This document shows, in pieces, positions 1,670 to 14,771 of a DNA stretch of 64,000 bases. The notes under the pieces are model-generated. The model made no database searches. It was given only the letters and a program-made list of their open reading frames with translations, and was not told the origin of the DNA. The position numbers were made by a program, and so were the translations under genes. The first letter of the stretch is position 1. Each line of letters starts with the position of its first letter. Origin of the DNA: a virus (lineage: Duplodnaviria; Heunggongvirae; Uroviricota; Caudoviricetes); IMG/VR virus record IMGVR_UViG_3300026966_000012; one strand, 5' to 3'.

Positions 1670-1781
1670 CGTGCGCTGGCGGGGCCAGGAGTTCGGCGAC
1701 GGCCAGTTCATCGTCTGGGAGGGTGACCCGAACACGTCGAAGGCGTACGTGGCCGGGACGCCAGTCCCGAACGAGCCCTGA
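1659..1781 (+). CDS. small hypothetical protein (40 aa)
   Basis: Untracked ORF MSGNVRWRGQEFGDGQFIVWEGDP...; ends exactly at the conserved terminator motif GCTGTTCCGCTTTTGCGCC. Confidence 0.3.
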   Translation: MSGNVRWRGQEFGDGQFIVWEGDPNTSKAYVAGTPVPNEP

Positions 1782-1812
1782 GCTGTTCCGCTTTTGCGCC
1801 GCGCCCCGCCGC
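1781..1812 (+). terminator. conserved cassette terminator motif (T-tract in a GC context)
   Basis: CCGCTTTTGCGCCGCGCCCCGCCG; one of at least 13 copies. Confidence 0.45.
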
Positions 1813-1993
1813 TCGCCGACCCTGTCGTGTTTTCCTGTCGCCCCCTCGCGCGGCGTGGTGCGGCAACCCGGTGCCCTTGCGATGTCTCGGGTTTACCAGC
1901 AGTATCAAGTTATTAACATATCTTTATACTCGCTCCTCTCTTAGGTTAGGATAGGCACTGGGGAAACCCGGTGGCCATCTGGAGTGAAATCGA

Positions 1994-3658
1994 ATGGCAA
2001 GCAGTGACAACGACGTGGAGTACAGCACGGGACAGATCGGCGTCGACGAGGAGCGTATCATCGACGAGCTGATCTTCAGCCAGGCGGAGGGCATCGTCGA
2101 CGGCATCCGCGAGCTGGCGCAAAACGGCGTCGACGCACCCGGCTCGACGAAGGTCGAGATCAACGTGACCCCGGAGCGGACGGTCGTGGTCGACGACGGA
2201 GACGGGATGGACCTGAGCGACGAGTCGGTCCGGGAGTTCCTGACGAACCTGGGCCAGTCGACGAAGATCGACGATGAGGAGACGATTGGCCAGTTCGGCA
2301 TCGGCTTCGGTCAGGCGCTGGCGGTCGGGAAAGTGATAGTGCACAGCCAGGACTCGAAGGTCGAGTTCGACGCGAAGAACTGGTTCCGCGACTACCGGCT
2401 GTACGAGGCCGAGGAGCACTTCGACGGCACGAAAGTGACGATCGAGCACTACGAGGACGAGGTGCCCGAGGCGGGCGCGAGTGAGTGGTCCGACCACCTC
2501 GCCGACATCCGCACCCGGTTCCAGTACATGGAGCTGGTCAAGGGCGTTGAGGTGTGGCTGAACGACGAGCAAGTATCCGGATACGACCCGGCTGAGGACG
2601 ATGAGAACGCCACCGTCTACGACTCGGAACTGGCGTACATGGTCCTGAAGCACGAGAGTTACGACTGGATAACGGTGTACTCGGCGGGCCTGAAAGTCAC
2701 GGACGTCCGCGGCCACGGCATCGGGGGCACCGTGATCACGAAGCGCAACCTCGAGCTGAACACGGCGCGGAACAGCATCCGGTCTGGGTGCGAGGTCTGG
2801 CCCGAGGTCGAGGCCGAGATCGAGGAGGCACGTGTCGAGCTCCTGGACGCCGTCTCTGATTCGAAGCTGACGAACAGTGGTCGCGCGGCCGTGGGCCGCC
2901 TGGCCGCCCAGGGACACGAGGGGTTCGAGGACCGCGAAGTGTTCAAGCTGGCGAACGGTGAGATGACCACCCTCGAGACGATCCAGAGCCGAGACAGCAT
3001 CATGTTCGCTGACCAGACGGACAAGGCCGGGGGCAAGCTGGCTGACCACGGGAAGACCGTCCTGATGCGCAGCGATGGCGCGGTTCAGGCGATTCGGGAA
3101 GCGGTGAACCTCGGTCAGCTGAGCATCCCGGAGACGAAAGACGTCCAGGCGTCGGCGGCCGCGATGGGCATCGCGAACGGCTACGAGATCCTCGAGCCCG
3201 AGGAGTTCCACAGCAAGCCCCTGGCGATGGCCCGCATCCTGCGGGAGAAGATGGAGCAGTACAGCCCCTACGCGCTGGACCGGGAGATCGTGGCCGGAGC
3301 GGATAGCGGGGCCAACGCGTGGACGAAGCCGGACCCGTCGACCCTGAACCCGGTGGAGACGGCGGCGATCGCCGACTCTGAGTTCGAGTCGTTCGTCGCG
3401 ATCACGGACACCGCCTACAGCCAGTTGGCGAGCGAGGTCCTCGTGCTCGAGCTGTGGCGCATCCTGGCTCACGAGTTCGCCCACACGGAGGATTCGACGG
3501 GTGAGCCGTCCCACGGGTCGGGCTTCGCGATGCGCTTCCGCAAGATCCTCGACAAGACCCAGCCGGCGGCCGTCGAGCTCCTGAACGAGATTCGCCAGGA
3601 TGGTGTCACGGCAACGTTCGAGCGATACGACCACGGCGTCCCACACGCCCGCGCCTAA
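1994..3658 (+). CDS. GHKL-family ATPase (HATPase_c) with a C-terminal HExxH motif
   Basis: N-box ELAQNGVDA, G1 VDDGDGM, G2 GQFGIGFGQA; C-terminal ILAHEFAH; hairpin and CTGGAGTGAAATCGA leader before the ATG. Confidence 0.7.
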   Translation: MASSDNDVEYSTGQIGVDEERIIDELIFSQAEGIVDGIRELAQNGVDAPGSTKVEINVTPERTVVVDDGDGMDLSDESVREFLTNLGQSTKIDDEETIGQFGIGFGQALAVGKVIVHSQDSKVEFDAKNWFRDYRLYEAEEHFDGTKVTIEHYEDEVPEAGASEWSDHLADIRTRFQYMELVKGVEVWLNDEQVSGYDPAEDDENATVYDSELAYMVLKHESYDWITVYSAGLKVTDVRGHGIGGTVITKRNLELNTARNSIRSGCEVWPEVEAEIEEARVELLDAVSDSKLTNSGRAAVGRLAAQGHEGFEDREVFKLANGEMTTLETIQSRDSIMFADQTDKAGGKLADHGKTVLMRSDGAVQAIREAVNLGQLSIPETKDVQASAAAMGIANGYEILEPEEFHSKPLAMARILREKMEQYSPYALDREIVAGADSGANAWTKPDPSTLNPVETAAIADSEFESFVAITDTAYSQLASEVLVLELWRILAHEFAHTEDSTGEPSHGSGFAMRFRKILDKTQPAAVELLNEIRQDGVTATFERYDHGVPHARA

Positions 3659-3940
3659 GCGGGCCGTGGCGCGGCAACCCGGCGTCGGACCGGCGTGATG
3701 CTGCGGATCGAATCCGCCCGACGTCCTGGCGGCCTTCGCTACTGTCAAGTGAAGTGACCGCCTACACCCGCCTGGATGGGTCGGAGCCGTTTGTGGTAGG
3801 CTCATAGGCGGTGCGCCCGACCCGTCCCACTCCAGGTGGCCACGGCGTTTGCGATCGGGCTGGCTCCCTCGGGAGCTAAGTGGTCGCGACCGCGGGGTAT
3901 CGCTCCCCGTGTCACCTTTCGTACTGATTGCTCTGATACC

Positions 3941-3977
3941 GTGTACGTACGTACAGACGCGTGTGTACGTACATACA
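3941..3977. repeat. alternating purine/pyrimidine (GTACGTACA) palindromic element
   Basis: gtgtacgtacgtacagacgcgtgtgtacgtacataca; family of 6 copies. Confidence 0.5.
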
Positions 3978-4076
3978 GCCTTTCGGAATCCTGACTTGTC
4001 AGAACCCTTTATTACCGTATCCTGAGAAGGATTACATGGACCTCGAGAAAGCCGAGGCCAGCTGGAGTGACCAGAG

Positions 4077-4388
4077 ATGACAGATACAGCACGACTTGTC
4101 GTGAATGGCTATGTGGAACCGAGCGAGCGAGATACCCGAATTGTGTCGATCCTGGGGAGTCTGGCCGGCGTCCCGGACGGCCACCAGTTCGACTATCGCG
4201 GGATGACGATCGAAAAGCGCGTGACGACCGAGCGAGCGCGGCGCGAACCCGAGATCGCTGTCTACGACCCTGACGGCGAGTACGTCGACCAGTTCCAACC
4301 GCTCCTGTTCTCGTCGTACGAGATCGTGGAGATGCTCGACGAGATGCGAGCCTACTGGGTCGAGGAGAGTCGCGCCACGGCACTGTGA
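4077..4388 (+). CDS. hypothetical protein
   Basis: 103 aa; module leader CCTCGAGAAAGCCGAGG + CCAGCTGGAGTGACCAGAG before the ATG. Confidence 0.55.
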   Translation: MTDTARLVVNGYVEPSERDTRIVSILGSLAGVPDGHQFDYRGMTIEKRVTTERARREPEIAVYDPDGEYVDQFQPLLFSSYEIVEMLDEMRAYWVEESRATAL

Positions 4389-4468
4389 TCGTGGCCGCGA
4401 CAGCGGTCGCAGTCGTGGTCGTCGGCCTGTGGCTGTTCTACGCCCTGGTCGTCTACCTCGAGTTGTGA
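4385..4468 (+). CDS. tiny hydrophobic peptide (27 aa, predicted single TM)
   Basis: GTG start overlapping the upstream stop (GTGA); VIVAATAVAVVVVGLWLFYALVVYLEL. Confidence 0.3.
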   Translation: MIVAATAVAVVVVGLWLFYALVVYLEL

Positions 4469-4486
4469 CCGAAAACTGGTATTTAC
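4469..4486 (+). promoter_or_regulatory. CGAAAACTGGTATWTA promoter motif, copy 1
   Basis: Same motif found upstream of the protease, sheath and TMP genes. Confidence 0.4.
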
Positions 4487-4520
4487 CGCGTGGGGCCTAC
4501 CGTGACATGGAGTACCAGAG

Positions 4521-4841
4521 ATGCCCCGACCGATCGAACGGATGGGTTGTGTTGCCGACCGACTGAGCGACGAGTGGGAGCTCGATGACATCGTGATCGA
4601 GCCGTCGGCGACCGTGACAGCAATCTACCGTCACGTATCCGGGGCGTACGTCATGTGGTCGGCCGACCCGGGACACACGGTACAGTTGTGGGAGGCCGAC
4701 GGATCGGTCGAGACGTGGCTCGATGACGACGAGTTCGCTGACCTGGATTCGGCGACCGAAACTGTCCAGACCTGCGTGGAAGTCATCGAACATGCGACCA
4801 ACCGCGCCCTACCACCAGCAGCGTCGACCCCGCGCCCGTAA
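4521..4841 (+). CDS. hypothetical protein
   Basis: 106-aa ORF, high GC3. Confidence 0.5.
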   Translation: MPRPIERMGCVADRLSDEWELDDIVIEPSATVTAIYRHVSGAYVMWSADPGHTVQLWEADGSVETWLDDDEFADLDSATETVQTCVEVIEHATNRALPPAASTPRP

Positions 4842-5016
4842 CGTTCCGCTTTTCCGCACCGCCTGCGCCAACCTGTCGACTTCCCGATTCAGTCTGACCT
4901 TGCTACGTTGTGTGATTACGGGCAAACACCTCAGATATACATATATTAATATTCACTCCACCCTTAGGTAGAAGTAGGCCAGGAAAACTGGCCCACCCGA
5001 ACGGAGATAGAGAAAG

Positions 5017-5166
5017 ATGCGATACAGAGTCTACGGTACGCACAGTGGCAACGAGTTTCAGGCACCTGTCGACGCAGTCGATGCGAGTGACGCGGTCGAC
5101 GAGTTCCTCGAGTCGGTCGAGGACCCGACCGAGTTCAGCGACGTCGAGGCCGAGGTCTGGGGGTAG
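5017..5166 (+). CDS. small acidic protein (49 aa)
   Basis: Untracked ORF after the module hairpin GGCCAGGAAAACTGGCC + CACCCGAACGGAG. Confidence 0.4.
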   Translation: MRYRVYGTHSGNEFQAPVDAVDASDAVDEFLESVEDPTEFSDVEAEVWG

Positions 5167-5169
5167 CCG

Positions 5170-5340
5170 ATGTCTGGCGAACCCCACACGGGCCCGATCG
5201 ACGCACACGTGTGCGAGCTCGAACCGCTCGATGGCGACGAGTTCGCGACCGTCCACAGCAAGGGCCAGTGCACGATCTGCGGGACCGTGACGACGCCGGC
5301 CCGGGGCGTGAAGAACGCGAAGCGACAGCGGATGTGGTAG
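5170..5340 (+). CDS. small zinc-ribbon-like protein (56 aa)
   Basis: Untracked ORF MSGEPHTGPIDAHVCELEPLDGDEFATVHSKGQCTICG... Confidence 0.35.
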   Translation: MSGEPHTGPIDAHVCELEPLDGDEFATVHSKGQCTICGTVTTPARGVKNAKRQRMW

Positions 5341-5342
5341 CG

Positions 5343-5651
5343 ATGGAGACAGAGAACGTCGCGATCGTCTCGCTGGAGGCGGCTGAAGTTGCCCGACGCG
5401 AGTTGGACATCCTGATTGAACAGACTGGCGGCCCGAACGCCGGGATCGATGAGTCGTGCTCGCCGATGGCCCTCGCGCGCCAACGCATCGAGCGCCTGGA
5501 AGGCGAAGGGATAGACCCGTTCACCGTGGCGACTGTGCTGCAAGTCATGTACGGCGTCGCGGAGGAGCGTGGTGTCGAGATCAGTAGCGCCGACCCGTTG
5601 CAGGACGACGTCTTCCGGGCACGAAGCGAGTTCGAGTCGGATCTCGAGTAG
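5343..5651 (+). CDS. hypothetical protein
   Basis: Internal ATG (METENVAIV) of track ORF 5211..5651, directly after the upstream stop. Confidence 0.45.
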   Translation: METENVAIVSLEAAEVARRELDILIEQTGGPNAGIDESCSPMALARQRIERLEGEGIDPFTVATVLQVMYGVAEERGVEISSADPLQDDVFRARSEFESDLE

Positions 5652-6059
5652 TCTCGACCCTGCTGCGGTTTGCATCGTTCCTGGTGGTAGTGAGCGGTTC
5701 GATTCCGTGACGATGCCTGGCCCCCGAGCCCTCAGACGATACGTTGATAGGTTCGCGGGGCCTATGCTCACGCGGCATCCGTTAGTGATGCCGTTCCGTT
5801 CGGGTGGGATAGCACGCGTCGGGCTGTCTCGGCAAGGGCAACCACGTCAGTCGAGATCAGAGGCTCGTGCAAACCCGTTGCCCGGGGCATTTGTCCCCGG
5901 GCGCCCTTTGGTACCGCCTCGAGCGAGAGCTCTTGTTCTCTGACATCGCGTATCCGCGCCCGAGCGCGCAAACCCGGTGTGATCATGCTACGATCCTGTT
6001 CTATCAGCAATATTATCTGACAAAGATATTATTATATCAGCTCCAGCCTAAGGTAAAGT

Positions 6060-6200
6060 ATGGCACGAAAAAGCCACTCGAGCGGAGATAGCGTGAACAA
6101 GCAGCGGTACCGCGGCAACGAGTCGACCGCCGACTTCGACCTGGGCGACGCACTGAGCCAGATCTCGGAGAGCCGCGAGGAGGACGAGGACGATGAGTGA
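6060..6200 (+). CDS. small acidic protein (46 aa), N-terminus MARKSHSSGD
   Basis: ATG inside the module hairpin TGGCACGAAAAAGCCA + CTCGAGCGGAG; untracked. Confidence 0.45.
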   Translation: MARKSHSSGDSVNKQRYRGNESTADFDLGDALSQISESREEDEDDE

Positions 6201-6402
6201 GCGCATGCACCGGGAGCCGAGCAAGTTCTCGGCTGACGAACTGTCAATCGGCGACGAGATCGTGGTCGCTGGCCTCGTCCACGAGGTCATGTCGGTGGGA
6301 GAGCCCGGGAAGCAGTGCCTCGTGCGGACGGACCGGGGCGCGTTCTCGAAAGACGGCCTGAGTAGCGGGATCGACGACGGCTCCGTGGAGGTGCGCGACT
6401 GA
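6193..6402 (+). CDS. hypothetical protein
   Basis: 69 aa; ATGAGTGA overlap. Confidence 0.45.
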   Translation: MSERMHREPSKFSADELSIGDEIVVAGLVHEVMSVGEPGKQCLVRTDRGAFSKDGLSSGIDDGSVEVRD

Positions 6403-6602
6403 TGCCGATGGCATGGGGCCTCGACGAGTCGTGCCCAGACTGTGGCGAGGACGAACTGATCTGGTGGACGAAAGACGAGACTGAACGTGTCGACGAGGTG
6501 AAGGTGGACTGCACCGCCTGCGGGATGGCGTTCCCGAAGGAGATCGTCGAGAAGACTGACGACACTCCTCGCGAGGAGATTGCACGGGGGATCGTCGCAT
6601 GA
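6402..6602 (+). CDS. zinc-ribbon protein
   Basis: CPDCG...CTACG. Confidence 0.5.
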   Translation: MPMAWGLDESCPDCGEDELIWWTKDETERVDEVKVDCTACGMAFPKEIVEKTDDTPREEIARGIVA

Positions 6603-7225
6603 GCTTCGAGTTCGACGAGGACTACGAGCTCGATGCGATGTTCGAGGGCGCGACCGAGTTCGACCCCGAGTACCAGCGCGAGCGGATGCGCGAACAGCTG
6701 GAGATCGCGGCCTGGGACATCCGTGAGGGACACGTCGAGGACGGCGAGACTTGGACGATCGAGGAGCCCAGCGTGCTGACGCCGGACCCGCTCGACGACA
6801 CCGACTTCGAATGGACGCTGCGCTTCGACGACATCGACGTGCTCGGTGACGAGAGTGTTCCCGGTGTGTTCGAAGTGATGGACCCGGAGGGAGAGTACGC
6901 CGGTCAGTTCGGTGCGTACGAGGATGGCGAGGAGCTGTTGAACGCGCTGGGCCACATCGCCCAGACGTTCCACCGCGACCGGGAGATCGCGAAGTTCCAC
7001 GCCCGCGTCGACGAGATGGAGCCCGGCGACAGTCACCTGCTCCCGAGTGGGAAGATCGAGCTGCGCGATGCCGAGAAGGCCGCGATCTTCGGCCCGGGTT
7101 ACGAGGAGCGGGTCGTGACCAACGCCGACAAAGTGACGCCGAAACTCGTCAAGCGCGTCGAGGGCGACTGGCGGGCTGAGATGCGCGAGAAGTACCGCGG
7201 GACCCCGATGGAGGAGGAGTTCTGA
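6599..7225 (+). CDS. hypothetical acidic protein
   Basis: 208 aa, high GC3. Confidence 0.55.
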   Translation: MSFEFDEDYELDAMFEGATEFDPEYQRERMREQLEIAAWDIREGHVEDGETWTIEEPSVLTPDPLDDTDFEWTLRFDDIDVLGDESVPGVFEVMDPEGEYAGQFGAYEDGEELLNALGHIAQTFHRDREIAKFHARVDEMEPGDSHLLPSGKIELRDAEKAAIFGPGYEERVVTNADKVTPKLVKRVEGDWRAEMREKYRGTPMEEEF

Positions 7226-7399
7226 ATGACCTACGAGATTCCGGCCAACGCAAGTGACAGAGACGAACGTATCGCCGAGCGGATGAACGAGATGCTGTTC
7301 AACGAGTTCGACATCCCGCTCGATGATTTCGAGATCCTGAGTGAAGAAGCAGGCTCGTTCGAGATCACGATCGAACCAGGTGTCGGGACGGTGGACTGA
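7226..7399 (+). CDS. small hypothetical protein (57 aa)
   Basis: Untracked; starts 1 nt after the upstream stop. Confidence 0.35.
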   Translation: MTYEIPANASDRDERIAERMNEMLFNEFDIPLDDFEILSEEAGSFEITIEPGVGTVD

Positions 7400-7539
7400 T
7401 GGGCGTCCCCGTGGGTGAGGCTGATGGTGAGTTCGCTGTGGAGCTGACGTGCGTCGCCTGTGAGGGCACGTTCGAGACCGATGAGACGATGCCCAACGAT
7501 TGCCCCGAGTGTGGGCGGCTGAGCTACACCGCGGCCTGA
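7399..7539 (+). CDS. small zinc-ribbon protein (46 aa)
   Basis: CVACEG...CPECG; followed by terminator motif CCGCTTTTGCGCACCGCCCCGTCG. Confidence 0.4.
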   Translation: MGVPVGEADGEFAVELTCVACEGTFETDETMPNDCPECGRLSYTAA

Positions 7540-7607
7540 CCGCGCTCCGCTTTTGCGCACCGCCCCGTCGAATGAGTTATCAGTTTTGCGGTAGTATCGC
7601 CGAATAG

Positions 7608-8120
7608 ATGAGTGACGATCGCAAGCCGTGGGAGAACCCCGTGACGCTGGCGCGGGCCTACGCCGAGTACGGCTCGGCTGAAGGCGTCGCTGACGCCTGG
7701 GGCTGTTCCGAACGGACGATCCGAACGTGGCTGCACGAGCACGACGAGATCCGCGTCAAGCGACAGGGTCGACGGCCGAGCTGGGAAGACACCGAGCCCC
7801 CGAACCACGTCCTCGAAGACGACGAGGGCTACGAGATCGTCGAGGCGTTCGTTCCCGTCCGCGACGACCGTGGCGAGCTCGTGAAGATCGAACGCAAAGC
7901 CGTCCGCATGCACCGGCTGATGTGTGTCCTCGAGTGGGGGTTCGACGCCGTCTGCGACATGGAAGTGCATCACCAGGATGGAATGAAGTTGCATAACTTG
8001 CCGCGGAACCTGGTGCCGCTCGATCACCTGACGCACGCGAACATGCAGACGCATCGGCGCTGGCGGATGCCCTGGGTCGGTGACTACGAACAGGGCGACC
8101 CCGGCCCAGTGGACGCGTAG
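7608..8120 (+). CDS. HNH endonuclease with an N-terminal HTH
   Basis: HTH segment GCSERTIRTWL; HNH core EVHHQDG...NLVPLDHLTHANM. Confidence 0.65.
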   Translation: MSDDRKPWENPVTLARAYAEYGSAEGVADAWGCSERTIRTWLHEHDEIRVKRQGRRPSWEDTEPPNHVLEDDEGYEIVEAFVPVRDDRGELVKIERKAVRMHRLMCVLEWGFDAVCDMEVHHQDGMKLHNLPRNLVPLDHLTHANMQTHRRWRMPWVGDYEQGDPGPVDA

Positions 8121-8135
8121 TGGGTTACGTCTGGT

Positions 8136-8282
8136 GCGTATCCCACGTGTCGCGCGCGTTTCACGGGTCGCGTATCCCGCGCGCGTTATCCCAGGTGCGT
8201 ATCCCGGGCCCTCGTTCTCGTGTACAGCGTATCCCTTGTGAGAGCACGCGAGAGCCCTCTCCCCCAGTAGAGATACGCACCC
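8136..8282. repeat. iteron-like cluster: 5 direct GCGTATCCC repeats plus 1 inverted copy
   Basis: Copies near 8136, 8170, 8183 (GCGTTATCCC), 8197 and 8227; inverted GGGTGCGTATC near 8272. Confidence 0.55.
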
Positions 8283-8391
8283 TTCGCATATCAATCGAGT
8301 TACGTAAGCAGCTATTGCCGATTCGGCGCCCCAGCGCGGCAACCCGGTGATTGCCAACCCCTAATCTATGACTCATGTTGATAAAGAAACA

Positions 8392-8399
8392 CTTAATAT
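8392..8399 (+). promoter_or_regulatory. TATA box of a cassette promoter
   Basis: acttaatatc lies about 26 nt upstream of the ATG at 8422. Confidence 0.45.
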
Positions 8400-8421
8400 C
8401 CCTCCACTCTTAGGTTAAGAT

Positions 8422-8583
8422 ATGGGACAAAAATCCCAACTCGGGCGGAACGAGGTACAGAGCGTCAAAATTGAAACGCAGGGCTCCCATGCTACGCTCT
8501 CACACATCGAGGGCGTGTGGATCGAGGATGGAGAGCTGGTCATCCGCACCCTCGAGGACTTGCCAATTCACGGAGAAATCTGA
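8422..8583 (+). CDS. small protein (53 aa), N-terminus MGQKSQLGRNE
   Basis: ATG embedded in hairpin TGGGACAAAAATCCCA; untracked frame (track ORF 8471..8809 is a different frame). Confidence 0.4.
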   Translation: MGQKSQLGRNEVQSVKIETQGSHATLSHIEGVWIEDGELVIRTLEDLPIHGEI

Positions 8584-8734
8584 GGCACGTCCTCCCACGG
8601 GACGCGCCCCCATGTCAAGCCTTCGTCCACGCGCAGCGGAGAGTGGCGGCGCCGACGGCTCGCCCTCGCGGGCCCGAGCGCGGCAAACCGGCACCATGCG
8701 ACGCCCGCGGAATCCCCGCAGTATCAGCCGTCTT

Positions 8735-8748
8735 ACATATATTAAATA
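8735..8748 (+). promoter_or_regulatory. TATA box of a cassette promoter
   Basis: acatatattaaata, about 27 nt before the ATG at 8772. Confidence 0.45.
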
Positions 8749-8771
8749 CCCTACCCTGAGTAGGAAGAAGT

Positions 8772-9107
8772 ATGGGACAAAAATCCCACCCCCGACCGGA
8801 GCAGTGTGAAGTGCCAGGGTACTACTGGACCGCCCCCGAAGTCGTCGAGTGCTGGCGCGACCCCGAGGACGTGCTGATCGCGTGGGACGACGGTGTGTAC
8901 GTGCTGTGTGTCGGCGAGCCGGCCGAGCATGCGAGTGAGTCAGGGCGACCGCTGTGGTACGCGCCCGAAGTGCGAGTGCACGACGTGTTCGTCGACGGCG
9001 AGCGATTCGAGCTGATCGAGCGCGACGACGAGCGCCTGCGCAACGTGCGGGAAGTGAGAGTGACGCACGGGACTGCAAGCGCCGTCGCCGAGCTCGAGTC
9101 AGCGTGA
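8772..9107 (+). CDS. hypothetical protein, N-terminus MGQKSHPRPE
   Basis: ATG inside hairpin TGGGACAAAAATCCCA followed by CCCCGACCGGAG. Confidence 0.55.
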   Translation: MGQKSHPRPEQCEVPGYYWTAPEVVECWRDPEDVLIAWDDGVYVLCVGEPAEHASESGRPLWYAPEVRVHDVFVDGERFELIERDDERLRNVREVRVTHGTASAVAELESA

Positions 9108-9187
9108 TCGTCGCCGTCGTCGCGCTGCTGGTGGTGCTGATAGGGCTCGCCGTGTTCTGGGCTGTCGTGCGGGCGATGGCGTCGTAG
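9104..9187 (+). CDS. tiny hydrophobic peptide (27 aa)
   Basis: GTGA overlap; VIVAVVALLVVLIGLAVFWAVVRAMAS. Confidence 0.3.
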   Translation: MIVAVVALLVVLIGLAVFWAVVRAMAS

Positions 9188-9336
9188 GGCCCTGTCGCGT
9201 GCCGCTTTCCCGCCGCGCCCCGTCGACCGCCGTCTGTCGTTTCCCCTCCGTCCACTCCGTCACCTCCGCGCGCCGCGTCACTGAAACCCGGTGTCCATGC
9301 CACGATCCGTACCCGACGACAATATCAGCCGATTAA

Positions 9337-9349
9337 CATATCTATATAC
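9337..9349 (+). promoter_or_regulatory. TATA box of a cassette promoter
   Basis: catatctatatac. Confidence 0.45.
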
Positions 9350-9371
9350 TTGCCCCAGACGAAGGTTAAGT

Positions 9372-9575
9372 ATGGCACGAAAATGCCTCCCGGACGGGTA
9401 CAGCTGGACAGTCGACGGTGAAGACGCGCAGACGACCGAGATCTACGTCGAGAACGCAGAGGGTGAGCTGATCGGCAAAGACCACGTGGCGTCGCAGTTC
9501 GTGCGAACCGACGCCGAGCGCGAGGAAGTTGCGGCGCAGATCGCCGCGGGTGAGCGGGGGCGTCAGTTCCAGTAG
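9372..9575 (+). CDS. hypothetical protein, N-terminus MARKCLPDG
   Basis: ATG inside hairpin TGGCACGAAAATGCC; internal ATG (index 27) of track ORF 9291..9575. Confidence 0.5.
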   Translation: MARKCLPDGYSWTVDGEDAQTTEIYVENAEGELIGKDHVASQFVRTDAEREEVAAQIAAGERGRQFQ

Positions 9576-9689
9576 AGCGGCGCCGACTGTCGGTTTTACG
9601 CCGTGCCCCGTCGACCATGCGACGTTCAGCGGAAGTCGACAATATCAGCTGTCATACATATATTCATATTCGCTCCCGACCAAGATAAG

Positions 9690-9806
9690 ATGGGGAGAAA
9701 AGCCCCACCCGACGGAACCATGAGCTACGCGACCCACGTCCAGATCCGGAAGTTGCAGAGAGCGAGAGACAAGAGCCGCTGGCCGAGCGACGAGGACGAC
9801 GAGTAG
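9690..9806 (+). CDS. small protein (38 aa), N-terminus MGRKAPPDG
   Basis: ATG inside hairpin TGGGGAGAAAAGCCCCA + CCCGACGGAAC. Confidence 0.4.
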   Translation: MGRKAPPDGTMSYATHVQIRKLQRARDKSRWPSDEDDE

Positions 9807-9833
9807 CGGGGCCGCCGCGGCCCCCTCGCCGAC

Positions 9834-9872
9834 GCGTGTGTACGTACATACGCGCCCATATGTACGTACGCC
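9834..9872. repeat. GTACGTACA alternating purine/pyrimidine palindrome
   Basis: gcgtgtgtacgtacatacgcgcccatatgtacgtacgc. Confidence 0.5.
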
Positions 9873-9990
9873 CATCTCGAACCCTCACGTGCCCGAGCGC
9901 GGCAAACCGGCACCCTGCGACGTCCGTCACAAGTCGACACATATCAGCCGCTTTACGTGTCTTTAATACCCTACCAGCCCAAGGTATAGT

Positions 9991-10353
9991 ATGGAAGCCA
10001 AAAACTTCCCACCGCGAACGGTGCAGAGCGCAGAGCCAACCGACGTCGTCGAAGAAGACGGCTACCGAGTCCTGACGTACGAGGACGTCGACGTCGACAT
10101 TCGGATCTCGCGGACGATCAGCCCCGAGACGCCGAAAATCTGGGTCGCCGGCGACCGACTCGACACGCAAGTGGAGACGGTGACCGACGTCGAGTTCCTC
10201 GGCTTCGAGCTCTGGCGATACACCTACCTCGAGGGTAAGCCGACCCATGCCGGTGAGGGTCGACACCGAGGCCGATTCGCCGAGGTCGAGATCGAGGAGA
10301 ATCACTACGGCGAAGACGAAGTCCACGAGTTCAGCCTCAGGGTCAAGCGGTAG
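9991..10353 (+). CDS. hypothetical protein, N-terminus MEAKNFPPRT
   Basis: ATG in hairpin TGGAAGCCAAAAACTTCCCA. Confidence 0.55.
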   Translation: MEAKNFPPRTVQSAEPTDVVEEDGYRVLTYEDVDVDIRISRTISPETPKIWVAGDRLDTQVETVTDVEFLGFELWRYTYLEGKPTHAGEGRHRGRFAEVEIEENHYGEDEVHEFSLRVKR

Positions 10354-10394
10354 ACGGGGCTGACGCCCGGTTTCGCGCGCCGCCCCGCCGCCCG

Positions 10395-10700
10395 ACGACC
10401 CCTGTTTCCACTCCGTCTGGTCCAACGCGGAATAGTAGAGGAAATTATTATTTGCAGAGATCGAGCCCTGAATACAACCCGCCTCAGCGAGGTTCATGGG
10501 CGCTACACGTCGGCGAGTTTTGTGAGGCATGGCTCCTACCCCTTCGAGTTGGCTCACGGCATTCCGAGCGTCGTGTGGACGGTGTCTCCGCGAGGTTCGT
10601 GGGCATCTCAGGAAATGCCCCCTGATGATACGAGAACCCCTGTTTCCCTTCCGCGTGCCGCGTCACGCGAATCCGGCACGCGCCATGCGACGTCGACGTC
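10395..10700. ncRNA. copy B of a conserved roughly 250-300 nt non-coding element (candidate ncRNA or regulatory repeat)
   Basis: Aligns with 1..335 and 14085..14335; core CTCCTACCC..GCTCACGGC, GCRTCTCAGG, CCCCTGTTTCC. Confidence 0.35.
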
Positions 10701-10724
10701 CATCCAGCAGTAACAGCCGTCTTA

Positions 10725-10737
10725 CATATCTATATAC
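10725..10737 (+). promoter_or_regulatory. TATA box of a cassette promoter
   Basis: catatctatatac. Confidence 0.45.
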
Positions 10738-10760
10738 CTGCACCACTCTTAGGATAAGAT

Positions 10761-11138
10761 ATGGGAACCAAAAACCCATCCGAAGCGGAACAGAGCGACG
10801 AGATCCTCCCGGCCCTCGACCACCGCGGACTGACGGGCCACGGCAAGGCCCGACTCGAGGAGAGCGAGCTCGTGACCCCGTACCTCGTGCGGACCCTCCA
10901 GGAGGCGGACCCGGCCATCCTCCGGGCCCTCTCGCAAGTGGCTGACGCCGCCGCCTCGGCCCGGTACGGCCCCATCCAGGCCCAGCTGGCCAAGGACGAA
11001 AGCGCGAGCCGCGAGATCCAGCAGCAGTACTGGAACCAGCTGGACGACGTGAAGGGCCTGTCCCTCCTCTGCACGGAAATCCTGCGCGACGAGCGTGACG
11101 GCGTGCCCAGCGAGGACGACCCGAGACTCGGCTTCTAA
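10761..11138 (+). CDS. hypothetical protein, N-terminus MGTKNPSEAE
   Basis: ATG in hairpin TGGGAACCAAAAACCCA. Confidence 0.55.
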   Translation: MGTKNPSEAEQSDEILPALDHRGLTGHGKARLEESELVTPYLVRTLQEADPAILRALSQVADAAASARYGPIQAQLAKDESASREIQQQYWNQLDDVKGLSLLCTEILRDERDGVPSEDDPRLGF

Positions 11139-11504
11139 CGCCGACCAGCGCACTACCACCAGCAGCGGCTGGCCTGCGCACCGGTTTTCCGCCGTGCCCC
11201 GTCGCCCACGTGACCCTCGTTTCCGCTCCGCCCGCGACTGTCTCGTGCGATCGTCGCGCCCTGCTTGCGTACGTGTCCCCCCACTGTTACGCTCGTCACG
11301 CCTGCGTTCGCGGCCTGTGCTATCCGCGTCCGACCCCTGTTTCATCTCCGCGTGCCAAGGCGCGGCAACCCGGTGGCGTCCCCGTCAGCAAACGGGCCCT
11401 TTCTGCAAGCAATCCGACACTGAAATCTATAAAACGCTGTCTCAAGCCCTCTACACGAGGATTTAGACCAGAACCTTTATATCAAATCAAGTTCAAGAAG
11501 AAGT

Positions 11505-11744
11505 ATGGAATCAAAAATTCCATCCCGGACGGAGAGTGGCGAGAGTGTCGAAATCGCAGTCGGTCACCGAGCGGAGAGCGACGTCATCGCGCGGGCGCTC
11601 AACGAGAAGGCGCGGGAAGCCGAGCTCGAAGCGGAGCGGGCCGGGCCGAAAACGCAGCCCGTGCACGAGCTCGACGCCGCCGTGCTGCGAAGCGCCGCCG
11701 CCGAGTTCGAGCGCGAGTACGCCGAGTGGCGCGAGGAGCGATAG
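11505..11744 (+). CDS. hypothetical protein, N-terminus MESKIPSRTE
   Basis: ATG in hairpin TGGAATCAAAAATTCCA + TCCCGGACGGAG. Confidence 0.5.
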   Translation: MESKIPSRTESGESVEIAVGHRAESDVIARALNEKAREAELEAERAGPKTQPVHELDAAVLRSAAAEFEREYAEWREER

Positions 11745-11746
11745 AG

Positions 11747-11908
11747 ATGCGCCCCGACGTGATCGAGTGGACGGGCGAGGCGCACCTGGTGACGACGGGC
11801 TGTGACGAGTGCGGGCGATCGTTCTCGATCGACGAGGACAGCGTGCGGTGGGCGGACGAGCGCGGACGACCCGTGTTCTGCGACTCGTGCGGGTCGGGAG
11901 GGCTGTGA
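11747..11908 (+). CDS. zinc-ribbon protein (53 aa)
   Basis: CDECG...CDSCG; in frame with track ORF 11210..11908. Confidence 0.45.
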   Translation: MRPDVIEWTGEAHLVTTGCDECGRSFSIDEDSVRWADERGRPVFCDSCGSGGL

Positions 11909-11909
11909 G

Positions 11910-12017
11910 ATGCGGCGGCTGCGGACGGCGCTGCTGGCGGCGAGCGTCGTGACGCGGATCGTCGCGTTCCCGGCGGTGTTGGCTGTCGCGCGGGCCCGAG
12001 CGAGGGTCGTGCGGTGA
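11910..12017 (+). CDS. small hydrophobic peptide (35 aa)
   Basis: MRRLRTALLAASVVTRIVAFPAVLAVA... Confidence 0.3.
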   Translation: MRRLRTALLAASVVTRIVAFPAVLAVARARARVVR

Positions 12018-12229
12018 GTTCCGTGCAGCGGCGGTTGTTCGAGGAGTCGGCGGTCGGGGCGGTCTGGGTCGAAGACAGTGACGGGGGTCGCGCGCTGGTG
12101 ACCGTCGAGCGGCACCCGACGGTGTCGATGGGACGTCTGCTCGAGGCGCTCCGGGGACGTGACGACGTCGAGACGGTGCGCCAGACGACAGCGACGCACG
12201 TCGAGGCGATCGTGCGAGGTGACGCCTGA
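12014..12229 (+). CDS. hypothetical protein
   Basis: GTG start overlapping the upstream stop. Confidence 0.4.
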   Translation: MSSVQRRLFEESAVGAVWVEDSDGGRALVTVERHPTVSMGRLLEALRGRDDVETVRQTTATHVEAIVRGDA

Positions 12230-12309
12230 TGCTGGTGGTACTGCTCGTTGCCCTGCTCGTGGTGCTGTTCGGCGTCTGGCTCGTGCTGGCCGCGGCTACC
12301 GCGTTCTAA
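12229..12309 (+). CDS. tiny hydrophobic peptide (26 aa)
   Basis: MLVVLLVALLVVLFGVWLVLAAATAF; ATGA overlap. Confidence 0.3.
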   Translation: MLVVLLVALLVVLFGVWLVLAAATAF

Positions 12310-12406
12310 CCTCGCGCGACGCGCCGCGGCAACCCGGTGAATCGGTCTAAGGGCTGTTACTACCGCATCACTGATATTTAATACCTCATGCGTCGAAGAT
12401 GAAGAT

Positions 12407-12868
12407 ATGGGACCAAAATCCCACCCAACGGGCGATGAAGCGAGCGATGAAGCGAGCGACGACGTCGTTGTCGTCGATGAGTGTGCGACGTGGGTCGGGC
12501 GACGCGAAGACGTGAGTGAAGACGAAGCCGTCGCCGCGATGAGCGATGTCGAGCGGGCCGTGAAGCGGGTCGCAGACGAGCGATGGGTCGACGTCGTGCG
12601 GGTCGCGATGTGCGACGACGAAGTGCGGGCCGTCGTGAAGATGAAGCAGTGTGAAGGGCCGGGTGCGGGCGCGACGACGTGGGCGAGCGCGTTGTGCGAC
12701 GTCGAGTTGGGCGACGGGCGCGAGCGCGAAGTCGATGTGAGCGTGACGTTGCCGGGCCGTGAAGGGATGTCGGGCGATGTGATGGGCGAAGTCGAAGTCG
12801 ACGGGCGCGAGTGGGAAGTGCGACGTGAAGTGTGGGTCGACGAAGACGGGCGCGAAGTCGGGCCGTAG
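12407..12868 (+). CDS. hypothetical acidic protein, N-terminus MGPKSHPTGD
   Basis: ATG in hairpin TGGGACCAAAATCCCA. Confidence 0.5.
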   Translation: MGPKSHPTGDEASDEASDDVVVVDECATWVGRREDVSEDEAVAAMSDVERAVKRVADERWVDVVRVAMCDDEVRAVVKMKQCEGPGAGATTWASALCDVELGDGREREVDVSVTLPGREGMSGDVMGEVEVDGREWEVRREVWVDEDGREVGP

Positions 12869-12995
12869 CGCGAGCGTGGGCGACGTCGCCGCCGGGCGAT
12901 GTCGTCGCGTGTCGGTTTCGCGCCGCGCCACCGCCCAACCAGCAGTTACAGCCGGAACACGTGCCTATATATCAGTATCATGAGAAGTAAGAAGT

Positions 12996-13334
12996 ATGGA
13001 ACCGAAAAGTTCCCACCGAGCGGAGTACAGTGAGCCGCCCATCGAGCTGGCGAATGCCGTGCGACGCGGCGAGCACTACCTGCTGGGCGACGTTGGAGAG
13101 TTCGTGGTCGACGAGATCGCTGTTGGGTACCCAGTCGAGGAGCGAGACGGCGTGGTCGCCCCGAACCGCGAGGCGTTCGTCACGCGTATCGAGTTTGTGG
13201 CGCCGGGCGAGTGTATCGTGATGGGTCTTGCCGAGCTCGAGGACCGCATCGATCGAACCGATGTGTTGCCCCTGACCGTGCGCGAACGCGATGAGGAGCT
13301 GCACGCGGAGTGGGAGAGCCACGGGCTGCTGTAG
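12996..13334 (+). CDS. hypothetical protein, N-terminus MEPKSSHRAE
   Basis: ATG in hairpin TGGAACCGAAAAGTTCCCA + CCGAGCGGAG. Confidence 0.55.
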   Translation: MEPKSSHRAEYSEPPIELANAVRRGEHYLLGDVGEFVVDEIAVGYPVEERDGVVAPNREAFVTRIEFVAPGECIVMGLAELEDRIDRTDVLPLTVRERDEELHAEWESHGLL

Positions 13335-13344
13335 TCGAGGCGCA

Positions 13345-13378
13345 CCGCTGCGGTCCGCTTTTGCGCCGTGCCCCGCCG
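13345..13378 (+). terminator. conserved cassette terminator motif
   Basis: GGTCCGCTTTTGCGCCGTGCCCCGCCGCTCG. Confidence 0.45.
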
Positions 13379-13438
13379 CTCGTCGCTGCTATTACCGGTA
13401 CGCTGACACTTATACTTGCACGAGTGGTAGGTAGAAGT

Positions 13439-13630
13439 ATGGTCAGAAACGACCACCCGAACGGAGAGCTGAGCGAGTACCAGAAGGCGAACGAGCTGAG
13501 CGACGACGAGTTGCGACAGCGCGTGATCGAGCTGCGGAGCGAGCCCGCGCCGCTGGTGGGAGTGGACAGCGAGTTGGAAGCCGCCGAGGAGGTCGCGCGA
13601 GACCGCGGGCTCGGGCTGGGGATGAGCTGA
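13439..13630 (+). CDS. hypothetical protein (63 aa), N-terminus MVRNDHPNGE
   Basis: ATG in hairpin TGGTCAGAAACGACCA + CCCGAACGGAG; internal ATG (index 43) of track ORF 13310..13630. Confidence 0.45.
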   Translation: MVRNDHPNGELSEYQKANELSDDELRQRVIELRSEPAPLVGVDSELEAAEEVARDRGLGLGMS

Positions 13631-13776
13631 TGCTGGGCCACAGCGGGCCGTTCTGTCCGGACTGCGGTGCAGAGGGACTGAGCGATGAGTGGGTCGAGGG
13701 CGGGCGACGGATGGTGGCGCGACAGTGCCCAGAGCCGAGATGTAGCTCGTACTGGGAGTACGAGGTGGGCTGCTGA
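13630..13776 (+). CDS. zinc-ribbon protein (48 aa)
   Basis: CPDCG...CPEPRC. Confidence 0.4.
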   Translation: MLGHSGPFCPDCGAEGLSDEWVEGGRRMVARQCPEPRCSSYWEYEVGC

Positions 13777-14006
13777 TGCAGCGACGGATCGACGCGACCG
13801 TGGTGATCGGGAGCGACCGAAAGACGGTGTCGGTGTGGGTCGACGAAGACGCGTCCGATGCGACCCGCGAGGCCGCGGTCGAGGAGATTGTCGGCGACGT
13901 CCGGTCGTGGGAGAGTGAGCCGGTCGAGCTCGAGGGATGGGGCGAGACGGGCTGGGTCCAGGGCGATGGCCGGGACGCGATGCCCCGCCGCGAGCCCGGC
14001 TGGTAG
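13776..14006 (+). CDS. hypothetical protein
   Basis: 76 aa; ATGA overlap. Confidence 0.45.
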   Translation: MQRRIDATVVIGSDRKTVSVWVDEDASDATREAAVEEIVGDVRSWESEPVELEGWGETGWVQGDGRDAMPRREPGW

Positions 14007-14084
14007 CCCCGCCTCGCGATTGTGGCCAGTGTCGGTTTTGCGCCGTGCCCCGCCGACCCCTGCTTCCGGTCCAACGACGCTGTC

Positions 14085-14335
14085 CAGCGGATTGAGCCGA
14101 CTGTGCGCCCGCATCTGACTGTCTCCGGAGGGTCCAAGGGCGTCTCACGTCGGCGTGTTTCTGACGCTGTGACTCCTACCCTGTAGGGCCTGCTCACGGC
14201 GTTTTGACGCCTGTGCGGACACTGTCTCCCGGCGTTCTGTGAGCGTCTCAGGCTGTCGCTTGCCGTGATGTCGTACGCATGTCATGACCCCTGTTTCCAC
14301 TCCGCGCCACGTCGCGTCAAACCAGCAGTATCAGC
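14085..14335. ncRNA. copy C of the conserved non-coding element
   Basis: cacgtcggcgtgtttctgacg..ctcctaccctgtagggcctgctcacggc..gcgtctcagg..cccctgtttccactccgcg. Confidence 0.35.
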
Positions 14336-14342
14336 CGCCAAA

Positions 14343-14355
14343 CATATCTATATAC
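14343..14355 (+). promoter_or_regulatory. TATA box of a cassette promoter
   Basis: catatctatatac. Confidence 0.45.
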
Positions 14356-14378
14356 TTGTACCCTGAGAAGCATAAGAT

Positions 14379-14621
14379 ATGGGAAAGAAAAGTCCCACCC
14401 GAGCAGAACTGGCACAGAAACGCCGCGGCATCGTCAGCGCGCTCCCGTTCACGTGCCCGACCGAGCGAGGCGACCAGATCGTGGTGCACGTGCAAGACCG
14501 CAAGCTGGAGAAGTTCGAGCGCGTCGCGAAGCAGCTCGAGCTCGAAATCGTCGACCGCGAAGACGGCGGGAGTTCGCAGCAGGGCCGGCGCCTGCGCATG
14601 ACGCTGGAGACGGCCTCGTGA
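14379..14621 (+). CDS. hypothetical protein, N-terminus MGKKSPTRAE
   Basis: ATG in hairpin TGGGAAAGAAAAGTCCCA. Confidence 0.5.
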   Translation: MGKKSPTRAELAQKRRGIVSALPFTCPTERGDQIVVHVQDRKLEKFERVAKQLELEIVDREDGGSSQQGRRLRMTLETAS

Positions 14622-14761
14622 GCCGCGTCGTCCGGGTCCCGCGTCTCGGCGACCGCCGTAACCCGTGCACCGTCATGCACGAGACGCACACGGGTCGCCT
14701 GAAAGTGCGCGACCGCTACGGCTACGCCCTGCGGGTCGACCCCGAGGAGGTCGTCGAGTAG
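14618..14761 (+). CDS. small hypothetical protein (GTG start)
   Basis: GTGA overlap; same frame as track ORF 14453..14761. Confidence 0.3.
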   Translation: MSRVVRVPRLGDRRNPCTVMHETHTGRLKVRDRYGYALRVDPEEVVE

Positions 14762-14771
14762 CGCAACCGCC

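What the first reader, a model, noticed from the sequence alone, without database searches (positions are those of the whole stretch)
8136..8282. Iteron-like cluster of GCGTATCCC repeats between the HNH endonuclease gene and the next cassette
Five direct copies of GCGTATCCC (one as GCGTTATCCC) lie within about 100 bp at irregular 13-32 bp spacing, plus an inverted copy (GGGTGCGTATC) about 40 bp downstream. Clustered short direct repeats with an inverted partner are typical of replication-origin iterons or a multi-site operator for a DNA-binding protein. The adjacent gene (7608..8120) is an HTH-HNH endonuclease that could be the binding or nicking partner.
Basis: seen in the sequence. Interest (0 to 1): 0.65.

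Follow-up and report, generated by a model that had tools for sequence, protein, structure and literature searches.

The report
Conserved repeat array trailing viral HNH gene
A cluster of short GCGTATCCC repeats sits just after a mobile DNA-cutting-enzyme (HNH) gene in a salt-loving archaeal virus and stays with that gene in related viruses, so it is most likely a set of protein docking sites tied to the enzyme rather than a replication origin.

Summary
GCGTATCCC occurs four times in 64 kb, all on the + strand at 8136-8235. There is also GCGTTATCCC at 8183 and an inverted GGGTGCGTATC at 8272-8282. Chance predicts 0.5 copies.

The window is a haloarchaeal tailed-virus or virus-plasmid genome. 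Its early region is built from repeated promoter cassettes. The adjacent gene (7608-8120) is a free-standing HTH-HNH, homing-type endonuclease.

I examined 14 homologous HNH loci. Six carry 2-4 same-strand GTATCC copies starting 18-106 nt after the stop codon. These six genes form one clade with a single loss. The flanking genes on both sides differ, and genome GC ranges from 0.41 to 0.63. In a five-way alignment, only the G.GTATC cores and a T-rich stretch between them are invariant.

The array is therefore a selected cis element genetically linked to the HNH gene. It is most likely a multi-site protein-binding array, and the enzyme's own HTH domain is the prime candidate partner. This is an inference and has not been shown.

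Nothing supports a replication origin. I found no Rep, Par or Int gene, no array-specific AT-rich region, and no known origin motif. The inverted copy is not conserved in relatives. A lone conserved GMGTATCC site also lies upstream of the operon promoter at 5948.

Interest is moderate. This is a new variant of a known kind.

The parts
8136..8144 (+). Repeat copy 1, GCGTATCCC, 18 nt after the HNH stop codon. It is absent from the Halorarum relative L124, so it belongs to a lineage-specific expansion.
8170..8178 (+). Repeat copy 2, GCGTATCCC.
8183..8192 (+). Variant copy GCGTTATCCC, with one extra T. A GTTATCC also lies between two GTATCC sites in L124.
8197..8205 (+). Repeat copy 3, GCGTATCCC (site B). 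Its G.GTATC core is invariant in all five aligned loci.
8211..8219 (+). T-rich half-unit CTCGTTCTC between sites B and C. The columns C.T.G.T.T are invariant in five loci. Similar G(T/C)TT(T)C words alternate with GTATCC every 13-15 nt here (8158 GTTTC, 8186 GTTATC, 8214 GTTCTC) and in L001.
   Evidence: sequence reading
8227..8235 (+). Repeat copy 4, GCGTATCCC (site C). Its G.GTATC core is invariant in all five aligned loci.
8272..8282 (-). Inverted copy GGGTGCGTATC. It is real here but not conserved (L124 has GGTACGAGCCC, L125 has GATAGGGCTGC). It lies inside a separate conserved block.
8259..8320 (+). Block CTCCCCCAGTAGAG...CTATTGCCG. It is unique in the window, about 80% identical in L124, partly present in L125, and absent from L001. 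Its function is unknown.
7608..8120 (+). Free-standing HTH-HNH endonuclease gene (170 aa), the element to which the array is genetically linked.
7574..7598 (+). Inferred HNH promoter. GAGTTATC lies at about -32 and AGTATC at about -12 relative to the ATG. It is conserved in L001, L124, L125 and L126, and partly in L261.
   Evidence: the promoter role is an inference
5948..5956 (+). Lone GCGTATCCG about 110 nt upstream of the 6060 cassette start. Orthologous sites are conserved in L001 (GCGTATCC plus CAGTATCC) and L124 (GTTATC..GAGTATCC). The flanking unit CTCTTGTTCTCTGACATCGCGTATCC resembles 8210-8235.
8336..8421 (+). Standard elements of the next cassette: GCGGCAACCCGG, the TATA-like TTAATAT at 8393-8399, and the start at 8422. 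These are not part of the array. This is the only AT-rich stretch nearby.

Best explanation
The cluster is a selected cis-acting array of 3-5 oriented protein-binding sites. The consensus is G-(C/A)-GTATC-C-(C), often alternating with a T-rich half-unit. It forms the 3' part of a mobile 'promoter, HTH-HNH gene, array' module in a small clade of haloarchaeal virus or virus-plasmid genomes. The proposed mechanism is inferred, not shown. The N-terminal three-helix HTH of the endonuclease would dock on the GTATCC words. Occupancy of the array would hold the enzyme at its own locus, together with weaker GTTATC/GTATC words in its own promoter and a lone site upstream of the operon promoter at 5948. 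That would give autoregulation and insulation of the inserted gene from the next early promoter, in the manner of the I-TevI operator. It could also provide nicking or recombination sites that help the cassette spread. What is shown: the array exists, is non-random, is under purifying selection at the cores, and is linked to the HNH gene rather than to either neighbour. What is inferred: that a protein binds it, that this protein is the HNH enzyme, and what follows from binding.
For: The array is non-random in the window. Same-strand GTATC clusters begin 18-106 nt after the HNH stop codon in the window, L001, L124, L125, L123 and L260. Poisson P against each locus's own background is 5e-3 to 5e-5. 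Sixteen sites from the first five of these loci give the consensus G(15/16) M GTATC C(13/16) C(10/16). In the five-way alignment the mean column identity is 48%. The two G.GTATC cores and CT.G.T.T between them account for most of the 28 invariant columns. The array-positive HNH proteins (58-79% identical) form one clade with one loss. Upstream neighbours differ: a 208-aa gene, a 46-aa Zn-ribbon gene, a photolyase, and a tRNA-like element. The downstream ORFs are unrelated to one another. Genome GC ranges from 0.41 to 0.63. Copy number varies between 2 and 5, and spacing between 26 and 48 nt, while orientation is constant. This fits independent protein sites better than an RNA fold. The protein has a confident HTH at residues 11-44 followed by a beta-beta-alpha HNH fold. 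It gives weak hits to DNA-binding HTH proteins and to I-HmuI. There is precedent that a homing endonuclease also binds an operator near its own gene (I-TevI; PMC2988022).
Against: No binding data exist. L127 (P0007) has an identical recognition helix (CSDRTIRTWLH) but no GTATC at all in 1.3 kb. L126 (72% identical) has no array. The array is therefore dispensable for the gene, and motif and HTH do not co-vary cleanly. A lone conserved site at 5948 is not next to an HNH gene, so another early protein could be the binder. The sites lie downstream of the gene, whereas classical autoregulatory operators overlap the promoter. GTATCC itself is not depleted or enriched elsewhere (21 + and 19 - copies).
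Confidence: 0.45

Rival explanations
1. The array is an operator or upstream-activating array for a different virus or host DNA-binding protein. It would control the next early promoter (TATA at 8393, start at 8422) or bracket the 6060-8120 operon. On this reading the HNH gene merely tends to insert next to such sites.
For: A conserved lone GMGTATCC lies about 110 nt upstream of the 6060 cassette in three genomes with no HNH gene beside it. In L260-L262 the HNH gene sits in the region that corresponds to this 5700-5950 stretch. HF2 intergenic repeats are proposed to carry sites for viral regulators (PMC8707807).
Against: The distance from array to downstream TATA box varies from about 80 to about 185 nt, and the downstream genes are unrelated. 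None of the other 12 or more cassette promoters in the window carries the motif. The array follows the HNH gene into four different contexts.
Confidence: 0.2
2. The array is replication-origin iterons or a partition (centromere-like) site of a roughly 150-kb virus-plasmid.
For: The repeats are clustered, direct and irregularly spaced. Relatives include a 148,857-bp plasmid of Halorarum halophilum and a 154,791-bp contig, so an episomal lifestyle that needs ori and par functions is plausible.
Against: No Rep, Orc1/Cdc6, ParA/B or primase gene lies within about 8 kb. The array is 65-68% GC, and the only AT-rich stretch is the generic cassette promoter. There is no resemblance to archaeal ORB elements (my own knowledge). 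The array travels with a mobile endonuclease gene into different positions and is absent from several relatives. Cumulative GC skew shows no clear inflection at the array.
Confidence: 0.06
3. It is an RNA-level element. The repeats would act in the 3' UTR of the HNH mRNA as tandem weak terminators (T-rich half-units), as processing sites, or as a type III toxin-antitoxin-like repeat RNA that neutralises the nuclease.
For: All copies are on the coding strand and start about 20 nt after the stop codon. L001 has a regular 27-nt tandem unit with T3-T4 tracts. Type III antitoxins are arrays of roughly 36-nt direct repeats next to a nuclease gene (my own knowledge).
Against: Folding is no better than shuffled sequence (z -1.2 on + and -1.9 on -). 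There is no Rfam hit. The units are degenerate except for a 7-9-nt core, and spacing varies from 26 to 48 nt. The T tracts are the least conserved part, and L260 has none. Type III arrays lie upstream of the toxin gene and have near-identical units.
Confidence: 0.12
4. It is neutral tandem duplication, or a scar of homing or repair events, inherited by descent with no function.
For: Copy number differs between close relatives: the window has two more copies than L124. L126 has lost the array without losing the gene.
Against: The cores are invariant while spacers are scrambled. This holds across loci whose HNH proteins are only 58-79% identical and whose GC content differs by 20 points. Neutral sequence would not retain this.
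Confidence: 0.07

Closest known systems
I-TevI homing endonuclease and its operator (phage T4 td intron)
   Same: A mobile endonuclease with a separable DNA-binding domain binds a non-cleaved site close to its own gene and autoregulates (PMC2988022). Here an HTH-nuclease gene is linked to conserved short sites around its own gene.
   Different: I-TevI is a GIY-YIG enzyme and is intron-encoded. Its operator is a single site overlapping the promoter. Here the enzyme is a free-standing HNH, and the sites form a 3-5-copy direct array downstream of the ORF. Binding is untested.
Free-standing HNH homing endonucleases (T4 MobA-E; I-HmuI family, Pfam HNH_3)
   Same: Small intergenic HNH genes with their own promoter, inserted between unrelated genes in different relatives. 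Isolate homologues lie between polB and thyX (HRTV-26, HRTV-14) and between a hypothetical gene and queC in the que gene cluster (HVTV-1).
   Different: No described Mob or I-HmuI-type gene carries a conserved array of direct repeats at its 3' end, as far as I could find. In this protein the DNA-binding HTH is N-terminal rather than C-terminal.
Plasmid or phage iterons with a cognate Rep gene
   Same: Clustered, oriented short direct repeats with variable spacing lie beside a gene for a DNA-binding enzyme.
   Different: The neighbouring gene is an HNH nuclease, not an initiator. There is no AT-rich unwinding element, and the element is mobile and dispensable.
Halovirus HF1/HF2 class I and II intergenic repeats
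   Same: Conserved intergenic repeats in haloarchaeal tailed viruses, proposed to be bound by viral regulators (PMC8707807).
   Different: The HF2 repeats are 58- and 29-bp AT-rich promoters dispersed across the genome. The counterpart of those repeats in this window is the cassette promoter, not the GC-rich GCGTATCCC array. There is no sequence similarity.
REP sequences with RAYT transposases
   Same: A nuclease gene is flanked by its presumed cognate short repeat, which also occurs singly in other intergenic regions.
   Different: RAYTs are HUH enzymes and REPs are palindromic and highly dispersed. Here there are only two sites per roughly 10 kb and no palindrome. This is a resemblance from memory only.

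Membership tests
Replication-origin iterons | An adjacent gene for an initiator (Rep, Orc1/Cdc6) that binds the repeats | tested here: not met
   The neighbours are an HNH endonuclease and small Zn-ribbon or unknown ORFs. There is no Rep, Orc or primase hit.
Replication-origin iterons | An AT-rich DNA-unwinding element next to the repeats | tested here: not met
   The array is 65-68% GC. The only low-GC stretch (0.41, 8350-8449) is the promoter found in every cassette.
Replication-origin iterons | Supports autonomous replication, or initiation maps there | not testable with these tools
   This needs a plasmid replication assay, 2D gels or marker-frequency analysis.
Operator or binding-site array for a linked DNA-binding protein | Short conserved cores with non-conserved spacers across diverged relatives | tested here: met
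   The G.GTATC cores are invariant while mean column identity is 48%. The consensus comes from 16 sites.
Operator or binding-site array for a linked DNA-binding protein | Genetic linkage of the sites to the gene for the binding protein, independent of the neighbours | tested here: met
   Six loci with four different upstream contexts and unrelated downstream ORFs. The array-positive genes form one clade. Exceptions are L126 and L127.
Operator or binding-site array for a linked DNA-binding protein | Sequence-specific binding of the protein to the sites | not testable with these tools
   This needs EMSA or footprinting at high salt.
Free-standing HNH homing endonuclease (the adjacent gene) | An HNH beta-beta-alpha-metal motif with conserved catalytic residues | tested here: met
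   H121, H122, N130, N134 and H143 are invariant. PHROG 7545 matches at E 5.8e-19. There is a weak match to I-HmuI 1u3e.
Free-standing HNH homing endonuclease (the adjacent gene) | Sporadic intergenic distribution between otherwise syntenic or unrelated genes | tested here: met
   Insertion contexts differ across the 14 loci and in isolates.
Free-standing HNH homing endonuclease (the adjacent gene) | Site-specific cleavage of an allele lacking the gene, followed by gene conversion | not testable with these tools
   No empty-site relative could be recovered. This needs cleavage and co-infection assays.
HF2-type intergenic repeats (promoter repeats) | AT-rich BRE/TATA-containing repeats placed about 26 nt upstream of a transcription start, dispersed at gene starts | tested here: not met
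   The array is GC-rich, clustered, and lies after a stop codon. The cassette promoters in the window fill that role instead.
attP arm-type sites | A neighbouring integrase gene and a core matching a tRNA gene | tested here: not met
   No integrase hit among the ORFs tested. No tRNA in the window.
Type III toxin-antitoxin repeat RNA | Near-identical tandem units of roughly 36 nt upstream of the toxin gene that fold into a processed pseudoknot | tested here: not met
   The units are degenerate with 26-48-nt spacing, lie downstream of the gene, and have folding z-scores of -1.2 and -1.9.

The most novel reading that the evidence does not exclude
The HTH-HNH gene and its GTATCC array form a self-contained mobile unit of a kind not described for homing endonucleases. 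On this reading the enzyme docks on, and nicks at, an oriented array at the edge of its own cassette and at lone sites such as 5948. This would create recombinogenic or replication-priming nicks that move the cassette between the repeated intergenic units of these virus-plasmids. That would be an archaeal-virus analogue of a nuclease with its cognate repeats, such as RAYT/REP or Rep/iterons.
Probability: 0.15. Interest if true: 0.7.

Novelty: new variant of a known kind. Interest (0 to 1): 0.42.

Why it matters
Regulation and mobility of genes in haloarchaeal tailed viruses are almost entirely uncharacterised. A conserved, gene-linked site array gives a concrete testable pair: a 170-aa HTH-HNH protein and a 9-bp word. 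It could be used to study how a selfish endonuclease is tolerated, regulated or spread in an archaeal virus. If the enzyme recognises GTATCC, it could also be a small, salt-adapted, sequence-specific nickase. The result also shows that the origin-of-replication label should not be attached to this cluster.

Tried and rejected
- **DNA similarity to known phages.** A distant search of window 6000-12000 found nothing.
- **Empty-site relatives.** I searched through the 208-aa upstream protein. Only the protein itself and one 46%-identical homologue exist, so no allele lacking the HNH gene could be compared.
- **Genome-contig scan with the HNH profile.** No confirmed relatives.
- **The Halorarum plasmid record.** It is not in the plasmid collection.
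- **Coding potential of the array.** ORF 8120-8350 (76 aa) is basic and reads 'RIP' at three copies. The copies are not in one frame in the window, L124, L123 or L125, so I rejected it.
- **RNA structure and RNA families.** Not significant, and no hits.
- **Bacterial-type promoter and terminator scan.** Nothing found, and of limited relevance to archaea.
- **cos or pac site next to an HNH gene, as in HK97-like phages.** Rejected, because TerL is 16 kb away at 24193 with a probable small subunit just upstream.
- **attP.** Rejected, because there is no integrase and no tRNA.
- **CRISPR-like array.** Rejected, because the period and the degenerate units do not fit.
- **Other repeat motifs behind array-negative HNH homologues.** Only two-copy matches turned up, and these may be chance.
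- **Structure search of the HNH model.** This gave only weak HTH matches at E >= 0.17.

Full report
**The observation**

Exact GCGTATCCC occurs at 8136, 8170, 8197 and 8227, all on the + strand, and nowhere else in the 64-kb window. The expected count is 0.54, and none of 100 dinucleotide shuffles reaches four. GCGTTATCCC lies at 8183-8192. The reverse complement of 8272-8282 is GGGTGCGTATC. It forms a perfect 10-nt inverted repeat with 8133-8142 and with 8194-8203.

With one mismatch allowed, the word is at chance frequency window-wide: 16 hits against 16.9 expected. The unusual feature is therefore the cluster, not the degenerate word. For the 5-mer core GTATC, the cluster is the densest place in the window. 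Only 2 of 300 Markov simulations gave four copies within 100 nt on one strand.

**Context**

All credible genes in the window are on the + strand and encode acidic proteins. They include:
- a T4-type large terminase (24193-25836);
- a portal protein (26074-27807);
- a ribonucleotide reductase (47246-50236);
- a thymidylate synthase;
- a tail sheath (59561-60916).

This is a haloarchaeal tailed-virus genome with no close DNA relative among sequenced phages. Relatives include a 148,857-bp Halorarum halophilum plasmid and a 154,791-bp metagenomic contig, so the element may be a virus-plasmid.

The first 17 kb is built from at least 12 repeated cassettes. Each has a T-run element after the previous gene, then GCGGCAACCCGG, then CAGCAGTATCAGCCG, then an AT-rich TATA-like box, and then an ATG followed at once by a small hairpin. 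This recalls the promoter-bearing intergenic repeats of halovirus HF2 (PMC8707807).

The gene at 7608-8120 encodes a 170-aa protein with two parts:
- an N-terminal three-helix HTH (residues 11-44);
- an HNH beta-beta-alpha domain with invariant HH..N..N..H residues.

Its homologues in isolated haloviruses are annotated HNH endonucleases. They are wedged between polB and thyX, or sit within the que gene cluster just upstream of queC. That is the typical placement of free-standing homing endonuclease genes (PMC2988022).

In the window, the gene together with the repeat cluster sits between the T-run element (7547-7570) and the GCGGCAACCCGG element (8336-8347) of an otherwise standard intergenic unit.

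**Comparative evidence**

I recovered 14 distinct loci encoding homologues that are 51-100% identical.

Same-strand GTATC(C) clusters begin 18-106 nt after the stop codon in six of them:

| Locus | HNH identity to window | GTATC copies in the cluster | Spacing (nt) |
|---|---|---|---|
| window | 100% | 4 (plus one GTTATC variant) | 34, 27, 30 |
| L001 | 79% | 4 | 27, 27, 27 |
| L124, Halorarum plasmid | 76% | 2 (plus one GTTATCC) | 44 |
| L125 | 78% | 3 | 30, 26 |
| L123, Lake Tyrrell scaffold, GC 0.41 | 68% | 3 | 31, 26 |
| L260 | 66% | 2 before the contig ends | 48 |

- Against each locus's own background, the Poisson probabilities are 5e-3 to 5e-5.
- L261 has two copies in inverted orientation.
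- L126, L127, L128, L131, L262, L266 and L267 have none.
- On a neighbour-joining tree, the array-positive genes form one clade with a single loss in L126.
- Upstream neighbours differ: a 208-aa gene in L001 and L124, a 46-aa Zn-ribbon gene in the window, a photolyase in L123 and L125, and a tRNA-like element in L260. The downstream ORFs are unrelated to one another.
- In a five-way alignment of the downstream regions, mean column identity is 48%. The two G.GTATC cores and the pattern CT.G.T.T between them account for 17 of the 28 invariant columns.
- Sixteen sites give the consensus G-(C/A)-GTATC-C-(C).
- The window has two more copies than L124, so copy number is fluid.
- The inverted copy at 8272-8282 is not conserved. 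L124 has GGTACGAGCCC and L125 has GATAGGGCTGC. It lies within a different conserved block, 8259-8320.

**Additional sites**

A lone GCGTATCCG at 5948 lies about 110 nt upstream of the 6060 cassette start. The orthologous positions in L001 (GCGTATCC plus CAGTATCC) and L124 (GTTATC..GAGTATCC) keep the motif within otherwise diverged sequence.

The unit around this lone site (5929-5956) resembles the last array unit (8210-8235). In L260-L262 the HNH gene itself occupies the region that corresponds to window 5690-5950.

The HNH promoter region carries GAGTTATC at about -32 and AGTATC at about -12 relative to the ATG. These words are conserved in four loci.

**Interpretation**

The cores are under purifying selection, and the array is linked to the HNH gene rather than to either neighbour. 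The simplest reading is a multi-site protein-binding array. The enzyme's own HTH is the leading candidate, because cis linkage is the rule for operators, iterons, transposon ends and homing sites. I-TevI provides a precedent for a homing endonuclease that also binds a non-cleaved operator at its own gene.

What the binding achieves is inferred only. It could be autoregulation and insulation of the inserted gene, or nicking that promotes recombination of the cassette.

There are caveats. L127 has the same recognition helix and no GTATC at all. L126 lacks the array. The lone 5948 site is not adjacent to an HNH gene. A different early protein could therefore be the binder.

**Rivals**

- *Replication origin or partition site.* No initiator or partition gene lies within about 8 kb. 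The array is 65-68% GC, and the only AT-rich stretch is the generic promoter of the next cassette. The element is mobile and dispensable.
- *RNA element.* Folding energies are not better than those of shuffled sequence (z -1.2 and -1.9). There is no Rfam match. Spacing varies from 26 to 48 nt, and the T tracts are the least conserved part.
- *Coding.* The overlapping 76-aa ORF is basic, and the copies are not kept in one frame.
- *attP.* There is no integrase and no tRNA.
- *cos or pac site.* The terminase is 16 kb away.
- *Neutral duplication.* This is contradicted by invariant cores amid scrambled spacers across a 20-point GC shift.

**Verdict**

The 'origin iterons' half is unsupported. The inverted partner is lineage-specific.

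I could find no description of a free-standing HNH gene carrying a conserved 3' array. I therefore class this as a new variant of a known kind, of moderate interest.

Noticed in passing
window 6060, 8422, 8772, 9372, 9690, 9991, 11505, 12407, 12996, 13439, 14379, 15454, 16306 (gene starts): At least 12 early genes start with ATGG followed at once by a 4-5-bp hairpin with an A-rich loop. The stem sequence changes in a compensatory way between copies: GGGA/TCCC, GGCA/TGCC, GGAAT/ATTCC, GGAAC/GTTCC, GGTC/GACC, GGGG/CCCC. A TATA-like box lies about 29 nt upstream, so the mRNAs are probably leaderless with a conserved 5' hairpin. This resembles the promoter-plus-stem-loop cassettes of T4-type phages (from memory) and the HF2 intergenic promoter repeats.
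   Followed up: partly
window 5672-5722, about 32715-32785, and near 3705, 17250, 20697; L260 about 240-290, L261 about 20-65, L262 about 2185-2230, L001 about 3190-3245: These are tRNA-like minihelices. A 6-8-bp outer stem encloses a T-arm GGTTCGAWTCC. The outer stems differ by compensatory changes between loci (GCATCGT/ACGATGC, ACGTCGAC/GTCGACGT, GGCCAC/GTGGCC, GTCATTG/CAATGAC). They are not called as tRNAs by ARAGORN and have no Rfam hit. They may be RNA-processing or attachment-related elements.
   Followed up: partly
window 1-17000: There is a repeated intergenic architecture: the T-run element CCGCTTTTGCGCCGYGCCCCGCCG after stop codons (8 copies), then GCGCGGCAACCCGGTG, then CCAGCAGTATCAGCCG about 55 nt upstream of the starts. 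The HNH gene homologues sit at different positions within this repeated scaffold in different relatives. This suggests that the repeats provide the homology for cassette movement.
   Followed up: partly
window 3943-3977, 9836-9870, about 16100-16140; L128, L262 and L266 upstream of the HNH gene: GTACGTAC/GTATGTAC-rich purine-pyrimidine tracts (for example GTACGTACGTACAGACGCGTGTGTACGTACATAC) recur in several intergenic regions and upstream of array-negative HNH homologues. Their function is unknown.
   Followed up: no
window 8151-8158 and 8178-8185: Two (CG)4 tracts lie between repeat copies. They have Z-DNA potential. They are not present in L001, L123 or L125, so they are probably not part of the conserved element.
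   Followed up: no
L126 1000-1290: In this contig the HNH homologue is followed by a 63-aa ORF and then an ORF with a LAGLIDADG-like motif (WVGFLLGDGW). This would be two homing-type endonuclease genes side by side.
   Followed up: no
window 1994-3658; L262 534-2138: A 554-aa GHKL/MORC-like ATPase (Pfam HATPase_c_3) is conserved in relatives. In L262 it lies just upstream of the tRNA-like element and the HNH gene.
   Followed up: no
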